A DNA stretch of 64,000 bases from a virus (IMGVR_UViG_3300021963_000063:32731-96730), one strand, 5' to 3'; shown: positions 45,578-63,851, counted from the first letter of the stretch. The notes: generated from the letters alone by a model not told the origin. Translations and numbers: made by a program.

Positions 45578-48466
45578 TTAATCTGAACTAACTAAGTCTG
45601 TTTCTTTATATGAAACTATTTTGTTTGTCATAAACACTTGACTATATGTTCCATTTGATTGTTTTTGTAAAAATTCTTTTCCATTTTCATCACCATTTTG
45701 AACATATATTAAATCTCCAGTTGCTATGTCTGCTGCTTCTAGTGATGTGTTAGCTGTAAAAGTAGCAATTCCATCGGAAAATCCAATTGAATAAACACCT
45801 CTATCTGCTGCTAATGTTTGATTTGCCAGTAAAACTGTAACTGGTCTTGCCAATCCTGGTGCACTAACACTATCAATTTCAATTAGATCTATATCATTAG
45901 AATAATTTATTGTATTAGAAGAAAGGGTATAATTTTCTGTGGCTGCTAGGGATACTGTAGCTTTTATTGAGTTTTGATTTGGAAGAAGTTCGTATTCTAG
46001 ATTTTCGTGTCTTACTTCTTTGTCATAAAAATTAATATTAAGAACACTAGAATCTTTCACTGATTCTGAGTAAGATGAATAAAATAAATTGTAATACTTT
46101 AAGGCTTGAGATGCTGTTAATTGAGATTCTAAGAAAGACAAATTATCAATATAGAATGTTCCTGTTGTTGATGAGGAGTTTCCAATTTCAATAGGTGTTC
46201 CAGTGAGAGTGTTGATTGGGATTGGATTATCTAAAACAATAGTATAGTGATTCCACTCATTAGTTTCTGCACTTGTTGTTGGTAGTCCATTAACATAGAC
46301 CGTACCAGTAATTCCACTACCTGCAATTGCTACTGTGCCTGATGTCTGCCTAATTATAACTGGATTAGAGTAAATAAATCTGCATTGAGATGTAGTTGTT
46401 GGCTTTGCTGTAAATATGATTGTACTAATTCCTTCAGTTGATTCTGTTCCAATGGCTTTTGCTGAATAATTTATTGTTCCATACTGATCACCAATCTTTA
46501 GACCAGTGGTGTTTCCATAGTACATTGAAGGTGTTTTCTTAACTTCTGGCAGATATAAATCTTTTCCAGACTTTGGTGTAATGGTTATATTTTGACTACC
46601 AATATCTGATCTCATTTCAACAGATGAGTTTGTTGAGTTAAATACATTAAGATTAAAGTATTGTAAAACGGGAGGATATAATTCATAATCATCTGACTCC
46701 ATAGTTATATCAAATCTAACAACATGGTCTGTGATAGCCTGACCAACTAAACCTTTTATTGGATCTCCATTTAAAATTTCTTGAGATGCTAAAAGTTCTG
46801 ATGTCTCATTATATACGGTAGCTTCTACCTTAACAAAACTATCTCCTTCAACTTCTCCATATCCTAAATCTATTCTATGTGGAAGAACTGCTGTAGTTCC
46901 TAGGAAATTAACTCCAACATAAAACTTAGCTTTACCCTTTGTGTATCTAAGTAATCTTTTTTCTTTGCTTGGAGATATTTTATAATTGTAGTCATAGTTT
47001 TCTAATTCAGTAAAATTTTGTGGGATAGATATTGTATCTTTTAATGCACCAATTAGATTTAGCTTTCCAGTAAATCTATTGGTTTCTGTTTCCGTTGAGG
47101 GAAGTATCTCGGTATTCGCAAAAGGAGTTATAGTTTCTCCACCAAATGTTATTGATGATGACATGATAGGTAGCTCTAAGCTTGTATTAGATTCTGTGTA
47201 TTGACTTGATGGTGTGTACAAAAATAGACTTAAAATATTATTTGATTCATAAAATCCTAAATAAACTTTTCCAGTTATTTCTGTAGTAGTTGATAGCAGT
47301 GTTGTGTCTGCCTTCTTAGTTCCATTAACATATTCTGTTGAATAATAAATTTTATAATCTGATCCGATTTTTTCAGCATATACAGATAAACCTGCATTTG
47401 TTAATGAATCTATTTTAAATAATAATTGTTTTGTTGTCCAGGTGGCTCCTGTAAAATCAAGTTTTGATATCATTCCATTAGGGAATGAATTAACTTTATC
47501 TGCAACATATAAAGATGTTCCGTGTGGAAAAGAAATTTCTCCATCAGTAGTTCCGTACATTGTTTCGTAACTAACATCTGAAAAGGTAACATGCTCTATT
47601 GTTGAATAATTATTGGTTGTTAAGTATCCATCTTTTTGAATTTGTAATGTATTATTTTCAATAACTAAGTTATTAGACCATGATGACTTATCGTTATAGG
47701 AAAGAGAGTAAAGCTTAGATGTGTTTTCCATATGCATCGAATACATTGTTCCAGCTTTTGCTGATATAGCAAATCTAGAAATATCATATCCTACTCCATA
47801 AATAAAATGCCTTTTTGCTATTGTGGGGTTAAATGGGTAGCTATAAATTGCAATACTATCTACATAAATTCCTAAAGATAAGCTTCCAAAAAAATCAAAG
47901 TACTCATCAGCGGAACTATAGGTTTTTGTAAAATATCTTAAATTTGATATTGGGGTTGAAGACTGAACTCCATTTACAAAAAGACTAATACCTTTTGGTG
48001 TATAGGTCATTGCAATATGAAGTGGTTTATTGAAAGTATCTACTGGCAAGGAAACTGCTATTGTATCTTGATCTCCAACTCTAAATATTAAATAATTATC
48101 TTTAATATAAAGACCAGTAGCACTGTTTGGTTTTCTAAGAATTACTGTTTCATCTTTTACAGAGTTTGTTATTTTAAGCCAAAACTCTAGGGTTGATGTA
48201 TATTGTCTATTTGCGGAAGACATTTTATCTAAAGATGGTATTCTAAGAGAAGGTATATTGTTTCCTACTAATTTTATACACTGTCCACCGCCATATACAA
48301 GAGGAACTTTAATTCTTTTTGAATTTGCTCCACTGGTACCTAGATATGTTCCGTTATATGAATCTCCTAGTAAAAAACCATCATTATTTGCTACAGTGCC
48401 ACTTGCCTCAGATAAACTCCAAATTGAGACAGGTGAATCTTGTAAAATTAAATCAGTATAAGACAT
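45578..48466 (-). CDS. LamG/concanavalin-like domain virion protein
   Basis: DSPVSIWSLSE...TLEFWLK...HIAMTY...LFVNG...DSIAIY. Confidence 0.75.
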   Translation of the reverse strand: MSYTDLILQDSPVSIWSLSEASGTVANNDGFLLGDSYNGTYLGTSGANSKRIKVPLVYGGGQCIKLVGNNIPSLRIPSLDKMSSANRQYTSTLEFWLKITNSVKDETVILRKPNSATGLYIKDNYLIFRVGDQDTIAVSLPVDTFNKPLHIAMTYTPKGISLFVNGVQSSTPISNLRYFTKTYSSADEYFDFFGSLSLGIYVDSIAIYSYPFNPTIAKRHFIYGVGYDISRFAISAKAGTMYSMHMENTSKLYSLSYNDKSSWSNNLVIENNTLQIQKDGYLTTNNYSTIEHVTFSDVSYETMYGTTDGEISFPHGTSLYVADKVNSFPNGMISKLDFTGATWTTKQLLFKIDSLTNAGLSVYAEKIGSDYKIYYSTEYVNGTKKADTTLLSTTTEITGKVYLGFYESNNILSLFLYTPSSQYTESNTSLELPIMSSSITFGGETITPFANTEILPSTETETNRFTGKLNLIGALKDTISIPQNFTELENYDYNYKISPSKEKRLLRYTKGKAKFYVGVNFLGTTAVLPHRIDLGYGEVEGDSFVKVEATVYNETSELLASQEILNGDPIKGLVGQAITDHVVRFDITMESDDYELYPPVLQYFNLNVFNSTNSSVEMRSDIGSQNITITPKSGKDLYLPEVKKTPSMYYGNTTGLKIGDQYGTINYSAKAIGTESTEGISTIIFTAKPTTTSQCRFIYSNPVIIRQTSGTVAIAGSGITGTVYVNGLPTTSAETNEWNHYTIVLDNPIPINTLTGTPIEIGNSSSTTGTFYIDNLSFLESQLTASQALKYYNLFYSSYSESVKDSSVLNINFYDKEVRHENLEYELLPNQNSIKATVSLAATENYTLSSNTINYSNDIDLIEIDSVSAPGLARPVTVLLANQTLAADRGVYSIGFSDGIATFTANTSLEAADIATGDLIYVQNGDENGKEFLQKQSNGTYSQVFMTNKIVSYKETDLVSSD

Positions 48467-50526: not shown

Positions 50527-50754
50527 ATGATAACAATTCAAGAAGCACACAAATATATGAACTTAGCAAATGATGGATTTACTAAAAAAATTTTATGCGG
50601 TAATGATTCAGATCACACTAGTTTACTTCCGTCACTTAATGAACAAGATGAAGTATATTTTTATTGTTTAGGGTGTACCTATAAAATTACTCCAGGTTAC
50701 AAAATGGAAAGATATATAAAATTTGTTTTAAATAGTTTTGCTGTTAAGAACTAA
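50527..50754 (+). CDS. Small Zn-binding hypothetical protein, leaderless
   Basis: TGATAGAAT-N6-ATG; C..H..CxxC. Confidence 0.6.
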   Translation: MITIQEAHKYMNLANDGFTKKILCGNDSDHTSLLPSLNEQDEVYFYCLGCTYKITPGYKMERYIKFVLNSFAVKN

Positions 50755-55871: not shown

Positions 55872-56297
55872 TTAAGATAAAGTATCCATGTTGAGCTTAT
55901 GATACTGATTTCTGATCATATCCTCAAAATTTTCTTTATTTGTTCCATATCGTAAGTTATCTAGATGATTGTTATTCTTTACATCATCCCAATGACAAAT
56001 TACCATTCCTTGTTCTGGATAACCCACAAAAGTTTGCATAACTAGAACATGTCCTCTGATGTTTTTTCTGTACCTTTCCTTAGAGTGCATTAGATATTGA
56101 ATATACCCACTCTTATCAGGTCTACCCGAAATTATTGTAGGTTCACTTACTAGCTCTCTATAACCAGATCCATTTCCATAGCCATAACGATTACGATATG
56201 ATCTAACTCTTCCCAAATTAGATACCTCGTATCCATAAGGTTCAAATGTTCCGTTTTTTTGTTTAATAGGCACTACTGCCTTCCATATTTCATTCAT
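55872..56297 (-). CDS. NUMOD4-HNH homing endonuclease
   Basis: EIWK...YEVSNLGRVRS; CHWDDVKNNNHLDNL; leaderless TGCTATTAT-N6-ATG at 56297. Confidence 0.88.
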   Translation of the reverse strand: MNEIWKAVVPIKQKNGTFEPYGYEVSNLGRVRSYRNRYGYGNGSGYRELVSEPTIISGRPDKSGYIQYLMHSKERYRKNIRGHVLVMQTFVGYPEQGMVICHWDDVKNNNHLDNLRYGTNKENFEDMIRNQYHKLNMDTLS

Positions 56298-56551
56298 ATG
56301 AGAATAATAGCACACTATTTATTATATTTAAATAGCACACTACATATTGATCAGAATGTGAATGTGATTTTAACTTGTATAGTACACGTTTTTAAAAACA
56401 ATAAAAAAATCAACTAGTGCGACCATAAGACACAATAGCTGACCTTTTATTTTAGTTTTAGTTTTTTTTAGTTTATTTTTTTTCTTATCTTGTAGTGGAA
56501 ATAATTCCTAGAATAATTAAAGTTGCAAGTATCGCAAAAGTTTCTAGCATC

Positions 56552-57005: not shown

Positions 57006-57134
57006 TTATACACAACCTTATACACATATGTGTATAACCTGTGGATAACCGCCTCGGGCATTTTTTCAGCCATTTGTCAATACGACACACCGTAAATCTC
57101 ACTGGAATTTTATCTGTGGATAACCTGTGGATTA
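57006..57134. promoter_or_regulatory. DnaA-box cluster 1
   Basis: TTATNCACA or its reverse at 57006, 57018, 57029, 57040, 57115; one mismatch at 57126. Confidence 0.8.
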
Positions 57135-57136
57135 TT

Positions 57137-57154
57137 GTTCACCTAATGTTCACC
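57137..57154 (+). promoter_or_regulatory. PHO-box-like direct repeat
   Basis: GTTCACC-taat-GTTCACC. Confidence 0.55.
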
Positions 57155-57232
57155 TAAACACACCCCTAAAACACCTAAAATTGTCAGCCCCCCCTGATAC
57201 GCTGAAAGCATAGAAAGAAAGGAGTGATTCAA

Positions 57233-57343
57233 ATGAAAAACTTACTAATCGTGGCTAAGTGCCAATGTTGTGAGGACAACTACCGTCTAGAAGAATTAGA
57301 TTCTGACGGTTACTGTTCAGGTTGTATCGAATACACCCTCTAA
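57233..57343 (+). CDS. 36-aa Cys-rich micro-protein
   Basis: MKNLLIVAKCQCCED...YCSGC; AAGGAG SD. Confidence 0.7.
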   Translation: MKNLLIVAKCQCCEDNYRLEELDSDGYCSGCIEYTL

Positions 57344-57400
57344 AACTGTCAGACCTATCTGATAGACTCAAACTACTAAACAAAAAGAAAGAGGTCACAA

Positions 57401-57586
57401 ATGACTTACTTAGTAACAAATAAGAGAGACGGTATCTCTAACGAATACATCTCTATTCATTCTGCCTTGCAAATGGTTGCAAGTTGCTATGACGGTGCAG
57501 GTATCACTTGCGAAATCGTCAATACAGAAACAGGGGAACAGGTAGAAATCTACCGCAACCCACTAACAGGTTGGAAGGTGGCTTAA
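57401..57586 (+). CDS. Hypothetical early protein
   Basis: ORF track; SD and promoter upstream. Confidence 0.7.
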   Translation: MTYLVTNKRDGISNEYISIHSALQMVASCYDGAGITCEIVNTETGEQVEIYRNPLTGWKVA

Positions 57587-57745
57587 ATGGCTTACACTAA
57601 ATTAAAGAATGCATCACTACTAGTAGATGCTATGAAACAATTGGAAGATGCGAAAGCAACTGCCCTAGAATTTCCTGCACACCAAAGAATGGTGGACTAT
57701 TGGGAAAATCAAATTCAAATCTTGACTAAGCGTGTCTACAGGTAA
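57587..57745 (+). CDS. Hypothetical early protein (52 aa)
   Basis: MAYTKLKNAS...; GAAGGTG SD. Confidence 0.65.
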   Translation: MAYTKLKNASLLVDAMKQLEDAKATALEFPAHQRMVDYWENQIQILTKRVYR

Positions 57746-57803
57746 AACTGTCAGACCCCTATGCTAGAATCAAACTACTAAACAAAAAAGAAAGGTGGTC
57801 ACA

Positions 57804-58019
57804 ATGACTACACTAAACACAAGAGAATTCATAGATTCTTACAATGCACTAAACAAGGCTAAGCACCCACTTAGCCACACCTCAAGTTCTGGCTATGTTG
57901 CATTAGCAACAATTCTAGAAATCTCAATTAACTGGAAACAGGGTATCAAGCAGATACAAGATACGCTAGATGAAAAATCTGCACAATGGAAAAACGAATT
58001 AGAAAGTTTGGTGAAATAA
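57804..58019 (+). CDS. Hypothetical early protein
   Basis: ATG 57804 after AAGGTGG. Confidence 0.7.
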   Translation: MTTLNTREFIDSYNALNKAKHPLSHTSSSGYVALATILEISINWKQGIKQIQDTLDEKSAQWKNELESLVK

Positions 58020-58020
58020 A

Positions 58021-58188
58021 ATGATGACACGCAAAGACTATGTAGCAGTCGCAGAAATTCTAAACTCTTACCACTTGGAAATTGAAGCACAAACTTTTGA
58101 GGATTTGCTTTCAGACTTCCAAACATTTTTCAAAAGAGATAATTCTAATTTTGACTTAACACGATTCAGAGATGCGGTGATGAAATAA
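58021..58188 (+). CDS. Hypothetical early protein (55 aa)
   Basis: MMTRKDYVAVAEIL...NSNFDLTRFRDAV. Confidence 0.7.
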   Translation: MMTRKDYVAVAEILNSYHLEIEAQTFEDLLSDFQTFFKRDNSNFDLTRFRDAVMK

Positions 58189-58332
58189 TGAATAGTTTTT
58201 ATTCTTGGATTTTAATTTTATCTTTAGCAAGTTTAGTTTTTTTAATCGGACAGGAAAAATAAAATGGAAATGTTTTTAGTTTTTATTTTTGGTCTGATCG
58301 CATTGGGAGTAATTTCAAAATACACAGACTAA
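58188..58332 (+). CDS. Two single-TM micropeptides (58188-58262, 58264-58332)
   Basis: MNSFYSWILILSLASLVFLIGQEK and MEMFLVFIFGLIALGVISKYTD; coupled stops and starts. Confidence 0.55.
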
Positions 58333-58393
58333 AAAAAATCCAAAGCTTCTGGGCGTGTTGACTTGACATTCCCAGAAATTTTGGCTCGGGGCG

Positions 58394-58468
58394 TTTTCCA
58401 CAACTTATCCACAGCTGTTAAGAACCTGTGTATAACTCACGGGAATTCTGGGGATAACCTGTGTATAA
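58394..58468. promoter_or_regulatory. DnaA-box cluster 2
   Basis: Perfect boxes at 58405, 58427, 58460; one mismatch at 58394 and 58449. Confidence 0.75.
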
Positions 58469-58471
58469 AAA

Positions 58472-58489
58472 GTTTACCAAATGTTTACC
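58472..58489 (+). promoter_or_regulatory. PHO-box-like direct repeat
   Basis: GTTTACC-aaat-GTTTACC. Confidence 0.5.
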
Positions 58490-58554
58490 TTAGACACGCT
58501 TAAAAGTCCCAAAATTGTCAGACCCCTCTGCTAAAGTGAAACTATAAATAAATA

Positions 58555-58612
58555 GTTAAGTATGAGCCTAGCAAATAAACCGCAAGGGTGAGCCTAGCAA
58601 ATAAGACTTAAC
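58555..58612 (+). ncRNA. 5'UTR RNA motif, twofold-symmetric double copy
   Basis: GUUAAGU...ACUUAAC encloses 2x UGAGCCUAGCAAAUAA joined by ACC-GCAA-GGG. Confidence 0.65.
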
Positions 58613-58632
58613 ACTAACGAAAGGAATACAAA

Positions 58633-58818
58633 ATGTATTCACTAACTATCGAAGAACTATTGGTGGGTCAGCGTTACACCTCTAGTCGTGGATTCGCTGG
58701 AGAAATTATCACTGCTGAAAAGCGTGAAGATACTATGAGCGATAGTGCTTATCTAATCTATGTCCGTCAAGACGGATTCCCTTACTACTTCTATTCAACA
58801 GTTGAGGTGACTGCATAA
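58633..58818 (+). CDS. Small beta-rich early protein
   Basis: ORF track; GAAAGGA SD. Confidence 0.7.
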   Translation: MYSLTIEELLVGQRYTSSRGFAGEIITAEKREDTMSDSAYLIYVRQDGFPYYFYSTVEVTA

Positions 58819-58973
58819 TGAATGAATTTATTTGTTGTTTTTGTGAAACAGAAATGAGTGAAGAACAAATTATTTGTTGCGACACTTACAAGGGTAAAAT
58901 GTCTTTGAAAGATTTTGAAGAAATTTATGGTTACACCTTAGTAACTCTTGACTACCAATACGAGGATTGCTAA
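58818..58973 (+). CDS. Acidic Cys-rich micro-protein (51 aa)
   Basis: MNEFICCFCETE...; TAATG coupling. Confidence 0.65.
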   Translation: MNEFICCFCETEMSEEQIICCDTYKGKMSLKDFEEIYGYTLVTLDYQYEDC

Positions 58974-59165
58974 ATGGGTTATGTAGAAATTTTTGAAATG
59001 AATTCCAATGGTGCAGGTTGGACAAATTTAGATGACCTGCCCGTTGGTGATGTAATCGAAATGCAATTTGAACTTTCAACTAATCCTAGCGTTCAATTGC
59101 TCTGTGCCTTTTGCCTTGTGCCAATTCCTAGTGGCTCAGGTAACGCCTGTGGAAAACATAAATAG
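58974..59165 (+). CDS. Hypothetical protein with C-terminal CxxC...CxxH
   Basis: ORF track. Confidence 0.65.
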   Translation: MGYVEIFEMNSNGAGWTNLDDLPVGDVIEMQFELSTNPSVQLLCAFCLVPIPSGSGNACGKHK

Positions 59166-59199
59166 TTATCCACAAGAGCTATCCACAGCCTGTGGATAA
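59166..59199. promoter_or_regulatory. DnaA-box cluster 3
   Basis: TTATCCACA 59166, CTATCCACA 59179, TGTGGATAA 59191. Confidence 0.75.
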
Positions 59200-59322
59200 C
59201 CGCCCGAGCACATTTTTATCCTGGTGTCAATTACGACATTACTAAAAAATCACGAGAATCACAGGAAAAATGTCAGACCCTTATGCTAGTATCAGAGATA
59301 CCTACTAAGAAATGAGCACTAC

Positions 59323-59856
59323 ATGACATACGCAACTCTATACCGCAACATTGCTAAGACCGCAACACCTGCACAAATTGAACAAGCCACGCAATGGTAT
59401 GCAGATGCAGAATTACTTGCTAGTGATCTAATCAGAATTTATCAGTCAAGAGGAATTAATCTAACACTAGAACATACCGCTAGTATCATTTCATCATTCT
59501 CACCTCGTCAGCGTTGGAATCGTAACGTAGTGCAAGCATTAGAATTTGCTCATGGAGGTGAGCCAAAAGGCTTAGGCAATAATCTACGCATGGCAAAACA
59601 ATCACAAGAAATTGGTTTCGATGCACTTAAGGGACTAAAGACAAATGCATTCGCTCGTGCAATTGCTGGCGATGATGATGCTATAACAATTGATGTGTGG
59701 ATGTGTTATGCAGCAGGACTAGATACCAATGCACCTAACAAAACACAATACAGAGAATTATCTGAGGCTGTAAGAATTGTTGCAAGCGAAATGAAAATGA
59801 CACCTAGAGTTATGCAAGCCCTGATCTGGATTATCTACAGGGGCAGTGCAGCTTGA
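59323..59856 (+). CDS. Helical protein resembling the HhH-GPD DNA glycosylase fold
   Basis: SPRQRW, GLKTNAF, ITIDVWM, MQALIW pattern. Confidence 0.5.
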   Translation: MTYATLYRNIAKTATPAQIEQATQWYADAELLASDLIRIYQSRGINLTLEHTASIISSFSPRQRWNRNVVQALEFAHGGEPKGLGNNLRMAKQSQEIGFDALKGLKTNAFARAIAGDDDAITIDVWMCYAAGLDTNAPNKTQYRELSEAVRIVASEMKMTPRVMQALIWIIYRGSAA

Positions 59857-59990
59857 CAGAGCCACCGAAAGGTGCTCGGGGCTTCCAGCTCCTTACCTAA
59901 TTACGACATTACTAATAACTCACAGGAATCACTGGAAAATGTCAGTGGTCTATGCTAAGATGATTTCATCATCAACCGAAAGGGTTTTCA

Positions 59991-60143
59991 ATGAAAACTT
60001 CAGTTCCAGATTTCGTTTCAGATTTCCAAGTTCAGTTTGAAGAGTGGGTTATGTCAATCCACGAAGACCTATGCACCTGTCAGGCTTGTGACCCAGAGTT
60101 TCACATGGAGTTGCTTGAAGAGTGGGAAGGTATGGTGTGGTAA
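59991..60143 (+). CDS. Acidic micro-protein (50 aa) with CxCxxC
   Basis: MKTSVPDFVSDF...; GAAAGG SD. Confidence 0.65.
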   Translation: MKTSVPDFVSDFQVQFEEWVMSIHEDLCTCQACDPEFHMELLEEWEGMVW

Positions 60144-60155
60144 AGGGCTCGGGGC

Positions 60156-60171
60156 TGTGACCTATCTCACA
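60156..60171. promoter_or_regulatory. CRP/GlxR-type site
   Basis: TGTGA-cctatc-TCACA. Confidence 0.6.
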
Positions 60172-60260
60172 TTTACGATTAAGTGAAATATCACGAAGAT
60201 CACGAGAATTGTCAGACCCCTGTGCTATGCTATGAGCATACCTACAGAAATGGAAATGCT

Positions 60261-60512
60261 ATGTTTACACTAAACAAAATTACTAAGAATGAAGAACTAA
60301 ACTATTTTGTATCTTCACACCCTTGCCCAAATTGCGATAGCACTTTATCAGTTGAGATTACTCCTGATAAGTTGTACGCATACAACCAAGGGGCTTATGC
60401 CCAAGATGTATTGTCTGCCTATGATGCAGGTGTGCGTGAGCGTTTCATTAGTGGAATGTGTGAAATTTGTTGGGGACTAATGTTTGACTTTGACGATGAT
60501 GATGAGGAATAA
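60261..60512 (+). CDS. Zinc-ribbon protein with acidic tail
   Basis: CPNC...RERFISGMCEICW; start downstream of promoter 60210. Confidence 0.7.
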   Translation: MFTLNKITKNEELNYFVSSHPCPNCDSTLSVEITPDKLYAYNQGAYAQDVLSAYDAGVRERFISGMCEICWGLMFDFDDDDEE

Positions 60513-60543
60513 AATTGTCAGACCTCTCTGATAAGGTATACCT

Positions 60544-60681
60544 ATGAATTACAAAACACCAGACCACCCTGAACGCTTGAGGGCTAGACTTGAACTACGC
60601 AGGTCAAGTGCCTCACAACCACACAAGTCCAAAAAGGCTTACACACGCAAGACCAAACACAAGAACCTACAAGGAGAATAA
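60544..60681 (+). CDS. Basic 45-aa leaderless protein (ArfA-like C-terminal motif)
   Basis: TAAGGT-N6-ATG; ...LELRRSSASQPHKSKKAYTRKTKHK. Confidence 0.65.
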   Translation: MNYKTPDHPERLRARLELRRSSASQPHKSKKAYTRKTKHKNLQGE

Positions 60682-60682
60682 A

Positions 60683-60979
60683 ATGGGAAGAAACTTCGCA
60701 ACAGAATTATCCGCTATGGATACTATGCCACTTGAGCAACAGATTAACTTGCACTTGCAATACAACTTCTATCCACCTGTACCGTCCTCAATGGTACAAC
60801 CTTGCATTGAAGCAATTGACGCTTATTGGGACGAGGACATTTATCGTGAAATAGAAATGCCATTAGGAGTTTCTTATCGTGGTAGTGATACTGCACCTGC
60901 TCACGCTATCGTTGAACAACACCGCTTAGATTCCTGGCTAAGCGAACTAGATGACTACTATGAAGATGAAGAGGTTTAA
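60683..60979 (+). CDS. Acidic hypothetical protein
   Basis: AAGGAG SD; start MGRNFA. Confidence 0.7.
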   Translation: MGRNFATELSAMDTMPLEQQINLHLQYNFYPPVPSSMVQPCIEAIDAYWDEDIYREIEMPLGVSYRGSDTAPAHAIVEQHRLDSWLSELDDYYEDEEV

Positions 60980-60981
60980 TT

Positions 60982-61188
60982 ATGTGGCAACTACAAGCAA
61001 ACTGTGATGAAACAAATACAGAACTATTCTTTAGCAAACTAGAAAGTAAAGTTGCTAAAGCAAAAGCCCTATGTGGCAGTTGTGCAGTTGCAGACAAGTG
61101 TTTGCAATTTGCATTAGATACAGAAATTGAATTTGGTATTTTTGGTGGAGTCACCGCAGACGAAAGGAAAGCACTTGTTTCAAACTAA
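60982..61188 (+). CDS. whiB: WhiB-family Fe-S transcription factor
   Basis: C...CxxC-x5-C and GIFGG turn. Confidence 0.9.
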   Translation: MWQLQANCDETNTELFFSKLESKVAKAKALCGSCAVADKCLQFALDTEIEFGIFGGVTADERKALVSN

Positions 61189-61366
61189 CTTAGTAGTGAA
61201 CTTTACCAATGGTGAAAGTAAAACTTATTTAGATGTTCACCCTGACCAAAGTTTCTTTATCCATAATGAGATGCTTACATTAGAAACGCTAAACGGTGAG
61301 ATGATTTGGTACATACCTGCCGTATCTGTAATTGACTACTACACAGAATGCGTGAGGGTTTCATAA
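61175..61366 (+). CDS. Hypothetical protein
   Basis: TTG start after GAAAGGA. Confidence 0.55.
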   Translation: MFQTNLVVNFTNGESKTYLDVHPDQSFFIHNEMLTLETLNGEMIWYIPAVSVIDYYTECVRVS

Positions 61367-61511
61367 CTTGACAAAAGCTCCGAAAGGGGCTCGGGGGGAT
61401 TTTTTTTGAAATGTCAATTACGACACGCTCAAAAACTCACTGAAAAAAACACTAGAAATTGTCAGACCCTTGTGGTAATGTATACACATAACCTACTAAG
61501 AAAGAGAAAAA

Positions 61512-61643
61512 ATGACAGACCAGCAACTTGTAGATAAAATTGTTGATTTATTTGATGCAGTCATTGACGAGAGTGCATTGGATAGATTATCAGAAGAAGA
61601 ACTAAAAGCAATTGACAAAATACTAACGGAAGCAGGTTACTAA
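61512..61643 (+). CDS. Acidic helical micro-protein (43 aa)
   Basis: MTDQQLVDKIVDLFD... Confidence 0.65.
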   Translation: MTDQQLVDKIVDLFDAVIDESALDRLSEEELKAIDKILTEAGY

Positions 61644-61644
61644 A

Positions 61645-61983
61645 ATGGGTGCAAGAATTAATTTCGTATTTGATGACGGAACAGATAGCCTAGTTAATCT
61701 TTATTCACATTGGGGTGAGACTGATTGGGAAAATGATTTAATAGGTGCATTGATACACGCACAGAAACGCAAAGGTGACTATTCATACTTTACTCGTATG
61801 GTTATCTCACACCTAATTAAAGACTATGTTTTAGATGAAACTGGTTTTGGTATCTATGCAATTAACCGTTCAGAAATTGCTAACAATTTTGATAAGACAG
61901 TTGTATTAGATTTAGTAAATAACACATTGACAGATTTAGACAATGATAAGACAGTTGAACTATATGGAAAGGTATTTGCATAA
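61645..61983 (+). CDS. Phage hypothetical protein
   Basis: MGAR...LYSHWG motif. Confidence 0.7.
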   Translation: MGARINFVFDDGTDSLVNLYSHWGETDWENDLIGALIHAQKRKGDYSYFTRMVISHLIKDYVLDETGFGIYAINRSEIANNFDKTVVLDLVNNTLTDLDNDKTVELYGKVFA

Positions 61984-62132
61984 TGGCAAAGATGAAAACA
62001 ATTGAAATGATTCTAATGGAAAACCACCCTGATGGAATTTACAATGAAGATGATGTATGGGAAGCAATTGCAGAAGCAAATGGCATGGACTATTCAGAAA
62101 TAGCAGACGGAGATTTAGCAGAATGGCTATAA
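61983..62132 (+). CDS. Highly acidic micro-protein (49 aa)
   Basis: MAKMKTIE...EDDVWEAIAEANGMDYSEIADGDLAEWL. Confidence 0.65.
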   Translation: MAKMKTIEMILMENHPDGIYNEDDVWEAIAEANGMDYSEIADGDLAEWL

Positions 62133-62254
62133 AACTATTTAATAAGAAACCAGAACTAATCGAAGATACATTTACTAAGTTAGATAGACTAATGAGTGAA
62201 ATGGCATCTACTGACATCTACATCGAATACCTTGAATTAAGGGAGGGTATGTAA
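62123..62254 (+). CDS. Hypothetical micro-protein
   Basis: MAIKLFNKK...; GGAG SD. Confidence 0.55.
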   Translation: MAIKLFNKKPELIEDTFTKLDRLMSEMASTDIYIEYLELREGM

Positions 62255-62459
62255 TGGCATTTGGTATCCTAATGGTATTGACTGTATACTCATTTATTGT
62301 TATGATAATGCTATACACAGACAAAGTTGAAAGCGAATGGGATAGTCAATAATGGAAATATTTTTTGGGGCAATTGGTCTGCTAATATTGTTTGGAGTGC
62401 TTATGTCTAATGGCAAGGGTACACCACACGATGAGGAAGATGGTTGGTATGATTACTGA
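62254..62459 (+). CDS. Two single-TM micropeptides (62254-62352, 62352-62459)
   Basis: MAFGILMVLTVYSFIVMIMLY... and MEIFFGAIGLLILFGVLM...; TAATG couplings. Confidence 0.6.
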
Positions 62460-62664
62460 GTATAAAGAAATAGATCAACTAATTGGAATGACTATTGAGC
62501 CAGGTGATATGGTAAAGCTGCCTAATGGTGATATTGTAAATATCATTCGCACTGAACCCACCGCAACAGGCTATGATTTATTCTTCTTAGATTTGTTTGA
62601 AGATGAGGAACTGGTTTACAGTTTAGACGACAATGAAAAGGTAACACTCCTAGAATTTGACTAG
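62449..62664 (+). CDS. Small SH3-like acidic protein
   Basis: IEPGDMVKL pattern; start MITEYK. Confidence 0.6.
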   Translation: MITEYKEIDQLIGMTIEPGDMVKLPNGDIVNIIRTEPTATGYDLFFLDLFEDEELVYSLDDNEKVTLLEFD

Positions 62665-62710
62665 GGGTGCTGCCCCGAGCTCATAACTTGCCAAATGTCA
62701 AGTTACGATG

Positions 62711-62726
62711 TGTGATTTAAGTCACA
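62711..62726. promoter_or_regulatory. CRP/GlxR-type site
   Basis: TGTGA-tttaag-TCACA. Confidence 0.6.
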
Positions 62727-62811
62727 GGAAATTAGATGTAAAAAAGACTAGAAATTGTCAGACCTATCTGCTAAGATGTTAGCATAACAACAACATAGAA
62801 AAGAGAAGCAA

Positions 62812-62967
62812 ATGGATAAAATCCAAACACCAACTGTTGGCTCACAGTTCACGACTGCTAAGTCAGGCGTAACAGGAACAGTTCAGGAAGTAATCAAAAA
62901 TACTACTGGCTCACTCCGTATTCGTCTTGATGTAAATGGTCAAGACCGTTGGACTACTGTAAAGTAG
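62812..62967 (+). CDS. Small beta-barrel-like protein (51 aa)
   Basis: MDKIQTPTVGSQFTTAKSGVTG...DRWTTVK. Confidence 0.7.
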   Translation: MDKIQTPTVGSQFTTAKSGVTGTVQEVIKNTTGSLRIRLDVNGQDRWTTVK

Positions 62968-63050
62968 TTTTAGTTATGGGGTCTGGCAAAACTGTCAGAC
63001 CCCTATGCTAAGATTATTTTAATAAACTACCTACAAATAAGGAGACCCAA

Positions 63051-63536
63051 ATGGGACTAGACATGTATCTTCGTGCGAATGAGTATGTATCACGCAACGA
63101 TTGGACTCGTAATGACAAAGGTGAATTAGTTGATAGCCCTAATTCATTGTTTCAACAAATTGTTGAGACTCTTGAGTTAGAAAACATTATTGACAATACT
63201 GGATTTGCTGGAATGAGCATTGACTTACCAATGGGTTACTGGCGTAAGGCTAATCAAATCCATAACTGGTTTGTTGAAAACTTAGCAGACGGTGTTGATG
63301 AATGTCAGCCAATTGTAGTTCGTAGAGAAGATTTAGAAACTCTAAAAGAATTGTGTATTCAAGTTCTTGCTGTGAAAGAATTAGCAGAAGATTTATTACC
63401 AAGTGCTTCAGGTTTCTTCTTTGGTTCAACTACCTATGATGAATACTACTATAGTGATTTGAATGACACCATTGGTATTATTAACAAGTGTCTTGAAAGC
63501 AAGTTTGATTACTTTGAATACCAAGCATCTTGGTAG
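63051..63536 (+). CDS. Phage hypothetical protein
   Basis: MGLDMYL...YWRKANQIHNWF...GFFFG...YQASW; AAGGAG SD. Confidence 0.8.
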   Translation: MGLDMYLRANEYVSRNDWTRNDKGELVDSPNSLFQQIVETLELENIIDNTGFAGMSIDLPMGYWRKANQIHNWFVENLADGVDECQPIVVRREDLETLKELCIQVLAVKELAEDLLPSASGFFFGSTTYDEYYYSDLNDTIGIINKCLESKFDYFEYQASW

Positions 63537-63594
63537 TAGGGCAGTGCCTGAATCCATAAACCTGCTACAGCCACGCAGGTAAAATAAGGGGGAC

Positions 63595-63630
63595 AGTCCT
63601 GAGTACCATACCCAGACTATAAACTGCTCA
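63595..63630 (+). ncRNA. H-type pseudoknot just 5' of the tRNA
   Basis: AGUC/GACU stem; loop UGAGUA pairs with downstream UGCUCA. Confidence 0.5.
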
Positions 63631-63634
63631 CCCT

Positions 63635-63708
63635 GGTCTGTTAGCTCAATTGGTTAGAGCACTACCCTGTCACGGTAGAGGTTGTGGGTTCAAGTCCCAT
63701 ACAGATCG
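63635..63708 (+). tRNA. tRNA-Asp(GTC), CCA not encoded
   Basis: Acceptor GGTCTGT/ACAGATC, D arm, CTACC-CTGTCAC-GGTAG, T loop GTTCAAGT. Confidence 0.95.
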
Positions 63709-63851
63709 CAAAAAGGGCTCGGGGCTCAGCTCCCTATTTGTCAATTACGACACGCCTAAAAATATCACGAAGTTTCTTAAAATAAGTATTGATTATTGTC
63801 AGACCTATGGTGTATAGTTAAACTATTAAACAAACAAACAAAGGAATAAAA

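What the first reader, a model, noticed from the sequence alone, without database searches (positions are those of the whole stretch)
57052..63744. Unexplained TTGACA-N15-GCTCGGGG-N15-TGTCAA element, eight cores in either orientation
Seen: a GC-rich 8-bp core at 57052, 58384, 59202 (reverse), 59874, 60147, 61389, 62673 (reverse) and 63717. An inward-pointing TTGACA lies exactly 15 nt away at 58363, 59853, 61368 (left) and 57075, 59225, 61412, 62696 (right), and 14 nt away at 63739. The 61368-61417 copy is fully symmetric (50 bp). Spacers vary but their length is fixed. A perfect -35 therefore faces a GC core where the -10 should be. Hypotheses: a non-melting sigmaA-RNAP trap, a site activated by nicking or modification (the core contains CYCGRG), or a recombination/dimer-binding site.
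Basis: partly seen in the sequence, partly recalled or inferred. Interest (0 to 1): 0.75.

Follow-up and report, generated by a model that had tools for sequence, protein, structure and literature searches.

The report
Lineage-specific GC box heading early cassettes
A short GC-rich box, flanked at a fixed distance by inward-facing TTGACA words, opens the full control regions of the early genes of an uncultured actinobacterial phage; relatives keep the layout to the base but each lineage uses its own box sequence, which suggests an unidentified lineage-specific reader, not a restriction-type site or an RNA polymerase trap.

Summary
All eight cores and all eight TTGACA/TGTCAA arms lie where stated. 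Two more cores, without arms, lie just past the window end in the same 96.7-kb phage genome. All ten are in or at the edge of intergenic DNA in the early region.

The element is larger than described. The arms extend to GGCGTGTCG-N2-3-TTGACA. The inside often holds a GAAA-loop hairpin and a T-run. Host-factor-like sites (WhiA-like GACAC, CRP-like, DnaA boxes) follow, then a PafBC-type promoter 62-131 bp downstream.

About 70 IMG/VR contigs of the same uncultured actinophage family share this layout. The GC block ends 13 nt before TGTCAA, and the arms are 37-38 nt apart. The core itself differs by lineage, even at orthologous sites: GGCATGCC, GCCCGCCCC, GGGGCGACCCC, GGGGTCGACCCC and others.

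So CYCGRG is incidental, and a sequence-blind RNAP trap does not explain the pattern. Best reading (about 0.4): a PeSL-/stoperator-like boundary module whose GC box is read on double-stranded DNA by an unidentified, fast-evolving factor. No such factor was found.

The scan had already noted this family's promoter cassettes on other DNA, but not the GC box or its lineage-specific replacement.

The parts
57051..57059 (+). GC core GCCTCGGGC (variant). A DnaA-box-like TGTGGATAA (57040-57048) lies 2 nt upstream and a T-run follows.
57075..57090 (+). Right arm TGTCAA + TACGACACAC (contains GACAC)
58351..58368 (+). Extended left arm GGGCGTGTTGAC-TTGACA. It lies in the loop of a 7-bp hairpin (CTTCTGGG...CCCAGAA) that is followed by ATTTT.
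58383..58393 (+). GC core GGCTCGGGGCG, followed directly by DnaA-box-like TTTTCCACA (58394-58402) and TTATCCACA (58405-58413). There is no right arm.
   Evidence: the orthologue in L229 has GGCATGCCCG here
59200..59209 (-). GC core, reverse orientation (+ strand reads CCGCCCGAGC). TGTGGATAA (59191-59199) abuts it.
59225..59238 (+). Right arm TGTCAA-TTACGACA
59853..59858 (+). Left arm TTGACA; it contains the TGA stop codon of the DUF7178 gene (59323-59856).
59860..59893 (+). GAAA-loop hairpin GAGCCACC-GAAA-GGTGCTC, running into the core GCTCGGGGC (59874-59882), then a second small hairpin GGGGCT-TCC-AGCTCC
60146..60171 (+). GC core GGCTCGGGGC abutted by a perfect CRP-like TGTGA-N6-TCACA (60156-60171). 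No TTGACA arm.
61368..61428 (+). The complete element: TTGACA, hairpin AGCTCC-GAAA-GGGGCT, core GGCTCGGGGGG (61388-61398), T8 run, then TGTCAA-TTACGACACGC
   Evidence: terminator-like 61378-61396 plus T-run
62672..62680 (-). GC core, reverse orientation (+ strand reads GCCCCGAGC). It forms the 3' side of the small hairpin GGGG-TGCTG-CCCC.
62696..62726 (+). Right arm TGTCAA-G-TTACGA, overlapping a perfect CRP-like TGTGATTTAAGTCACA (62711-62726)
63716..63755 (+). Core GGCTCGGGGC, starting 7 nt after the end of tRNA-Asp (63635-63709); hairpin GGGGC-TCA-GCTCC (63721-63733); right arm TGTCAA-TTACGACACGC (63739-63755)
   Evidence: orthologues carry GGGGCATGCCC or GCTGCGCCCC at this place
57182..63818 (+). 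Twelve PafBC-type (TGTCAG-N10-TAnnnT) promoters. Eight follow a core by 62-131 bp (57182, 58516, 59271, 59940, 60210, 61460, 62756, 63797). Four 'bare' ones follow a stop codon directly (57347, 57749, 60516, 62993).
   Evidence: 13 matches against 1.09 expected

Best explanation
The 8-bp core is the lineage-specific centre of a dyad module of about 50 bp (about 75 bp with the extended arms). This module opens the full regulatory cassettes of the early region in a large family of uncultured actinobacterial siphoviruses.

Order along the sense strand: end of the upstream early unit; optional left arm GGCGTGTCG-N2-3-TTGACA; often a GAAA-loop hairpin; the GC box; a T-rich 6-mer; the right arm TGTCAA-(N)TTACGACACGCC; then other host-factor-like sites (CRP-like, DnaA boxes, TCACNGGAA repeats) and a PafBC-type promoter.

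Shown here: the position, the base-exact spacing in this genome and in relatives, and the replacement of the box in step at orthologous sites between close relatives.

Inferred: the GC box is read as double-stranded DNA by a fast-evolving, probably phage-encoded factor, while the conserved arms are read by a conserved partner (host sigma-A region 4, a WhiA-like factor, or a conserved phage protein). Together with the hairpin and T-run, the bound module stops transcription arriving from the upstream unit, as a roadblock or terminator that insulates the cassette. This would give the phage one handle on all its early cassettes. In working terms it combines the T4-type PeSL terminator-promoter cassette with the mycobacteriophage stoperator.
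For: - All 10 cores lie in or at the edge of intergenic DNA in the ~12-kb early block, 62-131 bp upstream of the next promoter.
- In 37 unique elements from relatives and this genome, the GC block fills -24 to -14 relative to TGTCAA (100% G/C at -14) while the 13-nt spacer sequence varies. Inward arm pairs peak at 37-38 nt; outward pairs show no peak. Length is kept where sequence is not, which suggests a DNA-level complex.
- The core is uniform within each genome and confined to the early region in all 16 records examined: G001 has GCATGC 8 times, all early; G006, a complete 101.6-kb genome, has 10 copies, all early.
- Orthologous cassettes carry different cores although their flanks are 77-87% identical. 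One replacement lies inside the 3' end of an ORF.
- In this genome (6:4) and in L160 (7:5) the core occurs in both orientations relative to transcription. That fits recognition of duplex DNA, not RNA.
- The core abuts other protein-site look-alikes with 0-2 nt between them: DnaA boxes and a CRP-like palindrome.
- Three core types come from one sample, 3300042301, as expected of coexisting specificity groups.
- Hairpin loops are polar, GAAA 9 against TTTC 0, so a sense-strand RNA hairpin ends the upstream unit.
- Known analogues exist: PeSL stem-loops (GGGG...CCCC) terminate transcription in vivo (PMC2839356), and stoperators bound by a repressor terminate elongation (PMC9283540).
Against: - No reader was found. 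Apart from WhiB, none of 28 early-block and 2 nearby ORFs has a DNA-binding Pfam domain.
- No protein family tracks core type, either in the early loci or across 15 contigs.
- In most relatives the core is a G-run followed by a C-run, or a true palindrome, with a strong orientation bias (5:0, 5:1). A plain stem-loop would also look like this.
- A T-rich tail follows the core in 17 of 37 elements, which is terminator-like.
- The arms are missing from 3 of the 10 copies in this genome, so the full dyad is not obligatory.
- Everything about binding and function is inferred; no experiment or expression data are available.
Confidence: 0.4

Rival explanations
1. Plain intrinsic terminator or attenuator of a PeSL-type cassette. 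The GC box is only the stem of a small G-run/C-run hairpin, or the 3' arm of the GAAA hairpin, that ends the upstream unit. Uniformity within a genome comes from the very narrow set of GC-rich words left by extreme restriction-site avoidance, plus shared descent. No specific reader exists.
For: - Cores in relatives are GGGG-N3/4-CCCC palindromes, often followed by T-runs.
- GAAA loops are polar.
- Two copies in this genome pass a canonical terminator scan.
- PeSL stem-loops of the same GGGG...CCCC kind are proven terminators.
- The genome has no CCGG, GGCC, GCGC, CGCG or most GC-rich 6-mer palindromes. This forbids any pure-GC string with a G-run followed by a C-run.
Against: - This genome's core, GCTCGGGGC, is not self-complementary, and only 2 of 8 copies pass the terminator scan.
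- In 22 of 37 family elements the 3' end of the core is unpaired in the best fold.
- Sense and antisense folds are equally stable (18 against 19).
- At 58385 a separate hairpin with its own T-run precedes the core.
- Avoidance still leaves many possible centres, so it does not explain identical loop bases in all copies, or their replacement in step at orthologous sites.
- It does not explain the base-exact distance to the arms.
Confidence: 0.25
2. Nick or modification site. A lineage-specific nickase or modifying enzyme marks the cores in virion DNA. After injection, the nicks or gaps supply the single-stranded DNA signal that activates host PafBC at the adjacent PafBC-type promoters.
For: - Cores resemble restriction-type words (CYCGRG, GCATGC, GTCGAC, GGCGCC) that are otherwise absent from these genomes.
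- Specificity changes as fast as in restriction-modification systems.
- Every full cassette pairs a core with a PafBC-type promoter.
- PafBC is the DNA-damage activator that acts at RecA-NDp promoters.
Against: - No PF01555 or PF00145 methyltransferase and no PF01844 HNH were found in a 90%-complete genome.
- The only HNH_3/NUMOD4 gene (55872-56315) has no counterpart in G004, which shares the core.
- Several lineage cores are not restriction-like palindromes (GAGCCGCGCCCC, GCCCGCCCC).
- It does not explain the fixed spacing to the arms.
Confidence: 0.09
3. Recombination seam. Identical cores, with or without arms, are crossover points for shuffling early cassettes, either as in PeSL-mediated exchange or as sites of a site-specific recombinase.
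For: - The early region is highly mosaic between relatives, and nucleotide homology drops at the cassettes.
- The PeSL authors proposed that GGGG...CCCC stem-loops could be recombination targets.
- A 50-bp dyad resembles an att site in outline.
Against: - No tyrosine or serine recombinase was found.
- The arms are 13-15 nt from the core, unlike lox/FRT/dif sites.
- Between genomes of the same core type, 0 of 55 high-identity block ends lie within 25 nt of a core (4.8% expected), while 11% lie at promoters.
- Paralogous spacers are unrelated, so conversion tracts would have to be limited to about 10 bp.
Confidence: 0.07
4. Non-productive RNA polymerase docking site. Sigma-A holoenzyme binds the perfect -35 arms, but the GC block in the -10 position prevents melting. 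The result is a polymerase reservoir or roadblock next to promoters that themselves lack a -35.
For: - The arms are perfect TTGACA words in a genome that otherwise avoids TTGACA.
- Thirteen nt after the hexamer, the GC block covers about -16 to -6.
- No TAnnnT lies at 16-18 nt.
Against: - Any GC-rich block would serve, so genome-wide uniformity and replacement in step are unexplained.
- Three of 10 copies have no arm.
- The arms extend into a GACAC-containing motif that also occurs away from cores, which suggests a separate factor site.
Confidence: 0.07

Closest known systems
PeSL (promoter-early stem-loop) cassettes of T4-type phages (Arbiol et al. 2010, PMC2839356; Comeau et al. 2014, PMC4122927)
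   Same: Both are repeated composite motifs in the intergenic DNA of a variable early region full of small ORFans. [quoted passage not shown] The authors themselves speculated that a specific DNA-binding protein recognises GGGG...CCCC.
   Different: - The promoter here is PafBC-type (no -35) and lies 62-131 bp away, with host-factor-like sites in between.
- The GC box is flanked by inward TTGACA arms at a fixed 13-15 nt.
- The box sequence is lineage-specific and was replaced in step at orthologous sites.
- This genome's box is not self-complementary.
- Breakpoints between same-type genomes are not at the box.
- The host phylum is Actinobacteria.
Stoperators of Cluster A mycobacteriophages (PMC6550527, PMC9283540)
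   Same: Both are short sites repeated many times per genome, mostly intergenic, with sequences that differ between related phages. Bound repressor terminates transcription elongation.
   Different: - Stoperators are spread over the whole genome and belong to temperate phages with an identified repressor.
- Here the sites are confined to the early block, flanked by arms, and occur in both orientations.
- No repressor or integrase was found.
17-bp dyad repeats of Cluster O mycobacteriophages, TGTTCGGNNNCCGAACA (PMC4351075)
   Same: Both are actinophage repeats with invariant arms, more than 30 copies per genome in Cluster O, mostly between or at the ends of ORFs, with an unknown reader.
   Different: Cluster O repeats are one conserved palindrome found throughout the genome and shared by all cluster members. 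The box here is early-region only and differs between close relatives.
Lambdoid nut sites (boxA plus phage-specific boxB hairpin); recalled from general knowledge, not tested
   Same: Both combine a conserved part with a phage-specific part, plus a GNRA-like hairpin loop. Specificity groups coexist among mosaic relatives.
   Different: A nut site is read as RNA, occurs twice per genome and lies downstream of a promoter. Here the box occurs in both orientations (so it is read as DNA), in at least 10 copies, at the ends of transcription units.

Membership tests
PeSL cassette | Repeated intergenic motif in the early, ORFan-rich region, starting at the upstream stop codon | tested here: met
   All 10 cores lie between, or at the 3' edge of, small + strand ORFs in the early block.
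PeSL cassette | Stable stem-loop (typically GGGG...CCCC) acting as a terminator | tested here: inconclusive
   Relatives have GGGG-N3/4-CCCC. In this genome only 2 of 8 copies pass a terminator scan. In 22 of 37 family elements the 3' end of the core is unpaired. Terminator activity cannot be tested with these tools.
PeSL cassette | Stem-loop fused to a consensus sigma-70 -35/-10 early promoter | tested here: not met
   The TTGACA arms have no -10 at 16-18 nt. The working promoter look-alike is TGTCAG-N10-TAnnnT, 62-131 bp downstream.
PeSL cassette | Recombination between copies marks mosaic breakpoints | tested here: not met
   0 of 55 ends of blocks with at least 90% identity lie within 25 nt of a core. 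The sample is small.
Stoperator/repressor system | Cognate DNA-binding repressor gene in the genome | tested here: not met
   None of 28 early-block and 2 nearby ORFs has an HTH or other DNA-binding Pfam domain, apart from WhiB. No protein co-varies with core type.
Stoperator/repressor system | Sites spread over the genome, oriented with transcription | tested here: not met
   Sites are confined to the early block. Orientation is 6:4 in this genome.
Intrinsic terminator | GC-rich hairpin directly followed by a U-tract on the sense strand | tested here: inconclusive
   2 of 8 copies pass. In the family, 17 of 37 have at least 4 T in the tail and 15 of 37 have a paired 3' end.
Sigma-A promoter | -35 and -10 hexamers 16-18 nt apart | tested here: not met
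   The GC block occupies the -10 position, and none of the arms appears in the promoter scan.
AvaI-type (CYCGRG) restriction/modification target | Hexamer conserved in relatives, and a cognate enzyme present | tested here: not met
   CTCGGG/CCCGAG is absent from G001, G002 and G005, which carry other cores. No methyltransferase was found.
Site-specific recombination site (lox/att type) | Recombinase gene present, and binding arms abutting the crossover core | tested here: not met
   No PF00589 or PF00239. The arms are 13-15 nt from the core.

The most novel reading that the evidence does not exclude
The GC boxes are the cis half of an undescribed, fast-evolving DNA-recognition system in virulent actinophages. 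Each lineage has its own 'address' on every early cassette, read by an unrecognised small protein. Several address types coexist in one lake sample, like the immunity or incompatibility groups of temperate phages and plasmids. A variant of this reading: the boxes are lineage-specific nick sites that feed the single-stranded-DNA signal to the host PafBC activator of the adjacent promoters.
Probability: 0.3. Interest if true: 0.8.

Novelty: new variant of a known kind. Interest (0 to 1): 0.6.

Why it matters
If a lineage-specific reader exists, this family offers a natural series of matched site/reader pairs: at least ten box types on one conserved scaffold. These pairs would control the first minutes of infection in phages of abundant freshwater Actinobacteria. 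They would also show that virulent phages diversify regulatory specificity the way temperate phages diversify immunity.

Even under the modest reading, the finding extends the PeSL idea of terminator-promoter boundary cassettes from T4-type phages of Proteobacteria to actinophages that run their early genes from host PafBC-type promoters. It also gives a precise, testable 50-bp element.

Tried and rejected
- Near and distant DNA searches of cultured phages found only the tRNA.
- The 14-mer TGTCAATTACGACA in IMG/VR gave only scattered single chance hits.
- Rfam found nothing but the tRNA and a sub-threshold hairpin hit.
- Searches of the phage's own genome for a reader or enzyme were all negative: N6/N4 and C5 methyltransferases, HNH, tyrosine and serine recombinases, sigma region 2, T7-type RNA polymerase (its control found nothing anywhere, so that search is uninformative) and ParB.
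- Pfam scans of 28 early-block and 2 nearby ORFs gave only WhiB, DUF7178, DUF1660, a proteasome-like fold and, outside the block, an HNH_3 homing endonuclease and Hsp20.
- Co-variation of proteins with core type gave no outlier among 28 early families. The conserved Zn-ribbon early protein (60261-60512) does not track type.
- Across 15 contigs, the best-scoring family is a fast-evolving 75-aa Zn-ribbon protein (window 50527-50754, +). It is only 51% identical between this genome and G004, which share a core. WhiB has two paralogues that confound the score.
- Host identification through the GMP-reductase-like gene failed: the best hits were 48% identical, in unrelated phyla. The idea that the cores are host Chi-like or otherwise host-abundant words therefore could not be tested.
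- Cores as mosaic seams: not supported.
- The core as part of a DnaA-box/GC-cluster origin unit was rejected, because only 3 of 10 copies abut DnaA boxes.

Full report
**1. Observation**

The region was read directly.
- Exact GCTCGGGG lies at 58384, 59874, 60147, 61389 and 63717 on the + strand and at 62673 on the - strand. The copy at 59202 (-) has one mismatch. The copy at 57052 is GCCTCGGG(C).
Only 61368-61417 has both arms.
- Random placement of the 19 arm words in the early block gives 0.096 core-arm pairs at this distance. Eight are observed.
- TTGACA is otherwise under-represented in the window: 39 copies against 60 +- 8 expected.

**2. What the DNA is**

- The window is bases 32731-96730 of a single 96,730-bp IMG/VR virus record, classed linear and about 90% complete by CheckV.
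- It encodes a 2132-aa tape measure, a portal, a head protease, a DnaE-type polymerase and a ribonucleotide reductase. The polymerase and portal are about 55% identical to those of ~125-131-kb Streptomyces phages (BillNye, Comrade and similar).
- A WhiB gene at 60982-61188 (PF02467, E = 3e-21) points to an actinobacterial host.
- G+C is 36%. CpG observed/expected is 0.39. CCGG, GGCC, GCGC, CGCG, GCATGC, GTCGAC, CTCGAG and many other palindromes are completely absent.
- Small + strand genes run from about 57,200 to the window end and continue at genome 1 to about 4,200. This is the early block.
- CYCGRG occurs 10 times in the genome, all in this block. Two copies (genome 803 and 998) lie beyond the window.
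- Because CpG is depleted, the absence of CYCGRG elsewhere is only mildly surprising (about 2-4 expected). The concentration in the early block is the real signal.

**3. Anatomy**

- Each core sits after the end of an early transcription unit (a stop codon or tRNA-Asp) and 62-131 bp before a TGTCAG-N10-TAnnnT promoter. The window has 12 such promoters on the + strand, from 13 pattern matches on both strands against 1.09 expected.
PafBC acting through the RecA-NDp motif is documented in the literature.
- Between core and promoter lie a T-rich run, TGTCAA-TTACGAC(ACGCC), one or two TCACNGGAA words 9-10 bp apart, perfect CRP-like TGTGA-N6-TCACA palindromes (60156-60171, 62711-62726) and DnaA-box look-alikes that abut three cores.
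- GAAA-loop hairpins precede the cores at 59875 and 61390.
- Four further promoters follow a stop codon directly and have no core or arms.

**4. Relatives**

- The promoter word TTGTCAGACCCNTNTGCTA is found in 106 IMG/VR stretches. About 70 of them have three or more promoter copies, a G+C of 35-39% and the same absence of CCGG.
- They share the cassette layout but not the core. Each genome has its own GC-rich word:
  - GGGGTCGACCCC (L192)
  - GGGCATGCCC (L229)
  - GCCCGCCCC (L226, L198, L202)
  - GGGGCGACCCC / GGGTCGCCCC (L160, L178, L180)
  - GAGCCGCGCCCC (nine loci)
  - GCTGCGCCCC (five loci)
  - GGGGCGCCCC, GGGCTCGCCC and a GCCCGC-loop-GCGGGC hairpin type
- Only the two closest relatives, L145 and L147, carry CCCGAG-type cores. 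In L147 the orthologue of the 61390 core is inverted.
- At orthologous cassettes the flanks are 77-87% identical but the core is replaced. At 58385 this genome has GGCTCGGGGCG, L229 has GGCATGCCCG and L226 has TGCCCGCCCCG. The cassettes at 59203, 62674 and 63718 behave likewise.
- At genome 998 the core lies in the last codons of a small ORF. The orthologue in G001 carries GCATGCC there.
- In every one of the 16 records examined in full (this genome plus 15 relatives' contigs), the lineage's core is confined to the early block. This includes a complete 101.6-kb genome.
- Three core types come from one sample, 3300042301.

**5. Spacing**

- I anchored 37 unique elements on TGTCAA. The GC block fills -24 to -14 (100% G/C at -14, 97% at -16). 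Positions -13 to -8 are T/A-rich, -28 to -25 A-rich (the GAAA loop) and -35 to -29 GC-rich.
- The spacer sequence varies but its length does not.
- Inward TTGACA-Nd-TGTCAA pairs cluster at d = 36-39 (14 of 21; peak at 37-38). Outward pairs show no peak.
- The arms extend to GGCGTGTCG-N2-3-TTGACA and its mirror image.

**6. RNA or DNA?**

For an RNA role of the interior:
- Hairpin loops are GAAA nine times and TTTC never.
- A T-rich tail follows 17 of 37 cores.
- PeSL stem-loops of the GGGG...CCCC kind are proven terminators.

Against the core being merely a terminator stem:
- Only 2 of 8 copies in this genome pass a terminator scan.
- The 3' end of the core is unpaired in 22 of 37 best folds.
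- Sense and antisense folds are equally stable.
- At 58385 a separate hairpin with its own T-run precedes the core.
- This genome's core is not self-complementary.
- Cores occur in both orientations here (6:4) and in L160 (7:5), with occasional reversed copies elsewhere.
- The loop bases are identical in all copies of a genome.

Restriction-word avoidance is extreme and does forbid any pure-GC string with a G-run followed by a C-run. But it leaves many possible centres, so it cannot by itself make all copies identical or replace them in step.

**7.

- The genome has no recognisable methyltransferase, PF01844 HNH, tyrosine or serine recombinase, sigma factor or ParB. The T7-RNA-polymerase search was uninformative.
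- An HNH_3/NUMOD4 gene at 55872-56315 has no counterpart in G004, which shares the core.
- Twenty-eight ORFs of the early block and two just outside it give no DNA-binding domain except WhiB.
- Co-variation tests found no protein whose variants follow core type.

**8. Recombination**

- Nucleotide homology with relatives drops at the cassettes.
- Between genomes of the same core type, none of 55 high-identity block ends lies within 25 nt of a core, against 4.8% expected.
- No recombinase was found. The seam idea is therefore not supported, though the sample is small.

**9. Reading**

- The element is best described as the boundary module of early regulatory cassettes.
- In outline it is closest to the PeSL terminator-promoter cassettes of T4-type phages (PMC2839356, PMC4122927).
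- In its genome-specific repeated site it is closest to mycobacteriophage stoperators (PMC6550527, PMC9283540) and to the unexplained Cluster O dyads (PMC4351075).
- It fails defining features of each, so I file it as a new variant, not a member.
- I commit, at about 0.4, to recognition of the GC box on duplex DNA by a fast-evolving factor that insulates and co-regulates the cassettes. The plain terminator stands at about 0.25. Nick/modification, recombination and RNA polymerase docking each stand below 0.1.

**10. Earlier notes of this scan**

Earlier notes had already described the PafBC-type promoters and the CRP-, WhiA- and DnaA-like sites of this phage family on other DNA, and had named PeSLs as the closest known kind for a different palindrome-tagged actinophage. 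None mentions the GC box, its fixed spacing or its lineage-specific replacement.

Noticed in passing
whole genome (window 1-64000 plus L001, L002): Extreme palindrome avoidance: no CCGG, GGCC, GCGC, CGCG, GCATGC, GTCGAC, CTCGAG, CGATCG, CACGTG and others in 96.7 kb. CpG observed/expected is 0.39. CTGCAG, CAATTG and TTGCAA are over-represented.
   Followed up: partly
window 57182-63818 (+): Twelve TGTCAG-N10-TAnnnT promoters (PafBC/RecA-NDp form), all on the + strand. Eight sit behind a full cassette and four directly follow a stop codon.
   Followed up: partly
window 55872-56315 (-): A 147-aa HNH_3 + NUMOD4 homing-endonuclease-like gene next to the early block. It has no counterpart in four related contigs, so it is probably a free-standing mobile endonuclease.
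   Followed up: partly
window 62972-63003 (+): Inverted repeat GGGGTCTG-N10-CAGACCCC whose 3' arm is the PafBC-type box of the promoter at 62993. It is a stem-loop overlapping a promoter, is conserved in L160, L192 and L229, and gives a sub-threshold Rfam hairpin hit.
   Followed up: no
window 60156-60171 and 62711-62726: Two perfect CRP-like TGTGA-N6-TCACA palindromes. The first abuts a GC core directly.
   Followed up: no
window 57040-57123, 58394-58413, 59148-59199: Clusters of DnaA-box look-alikes (TGTGGATAA / TTATCCACA / TTTTCCACA), 0-2 nt from three of the cores. In relatives TGTGGATAA often starts right at the end of the core.
   Followed up: partly
window 45578-48466 (-): A 962-aa protein with a Laminin_G_3 domain is only 27-31% identical to its positional orthologues, while the neighbouring RNR and portal are 68-91% identical. 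It is probably a fast-evolving host-recognition or decoration protein.
   Followed up: no
window 50527-50754 (+): A 75-aa Cys-rich (Zn-ribbon-like) ORF on the opposite strand to its neighbours. It is present in all 12 contigs that cover the region and evolves fast. In size and Cys pattern it recalls Ogr/Delta-type late activators (a recollection, not tested).
   Followed up: partly
L001:3580-4098 (+): A 172-aa ORF with a weak proteasome-subunit match (PF00227, E = 2.4e-5) in a phage whose early promoters look PafBC-dependent. PafBC genes lie in the proteasome locus of Actinobacteria.
   Followed up: no
L001:1230-1560: An AT-rich stretch with repeated TTATGCA / TATGCAT words and direct repeats, just after the last cassette. 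It may be an origin or iteron region.
   Followed up: no
window 61388-61398, 63716-63733, 60146-60155: G-rich direct repeats (GGGCTC-GGGGCTC) let the nearby C-rich arm pair with either of two G-runs, and only one pairing places a hairpin against the T-run. In relatives the pattern C-run/GAAA/G-run/centre/C-run gives a similar two-state choice, so these may be attenuators.
   Followed up: no
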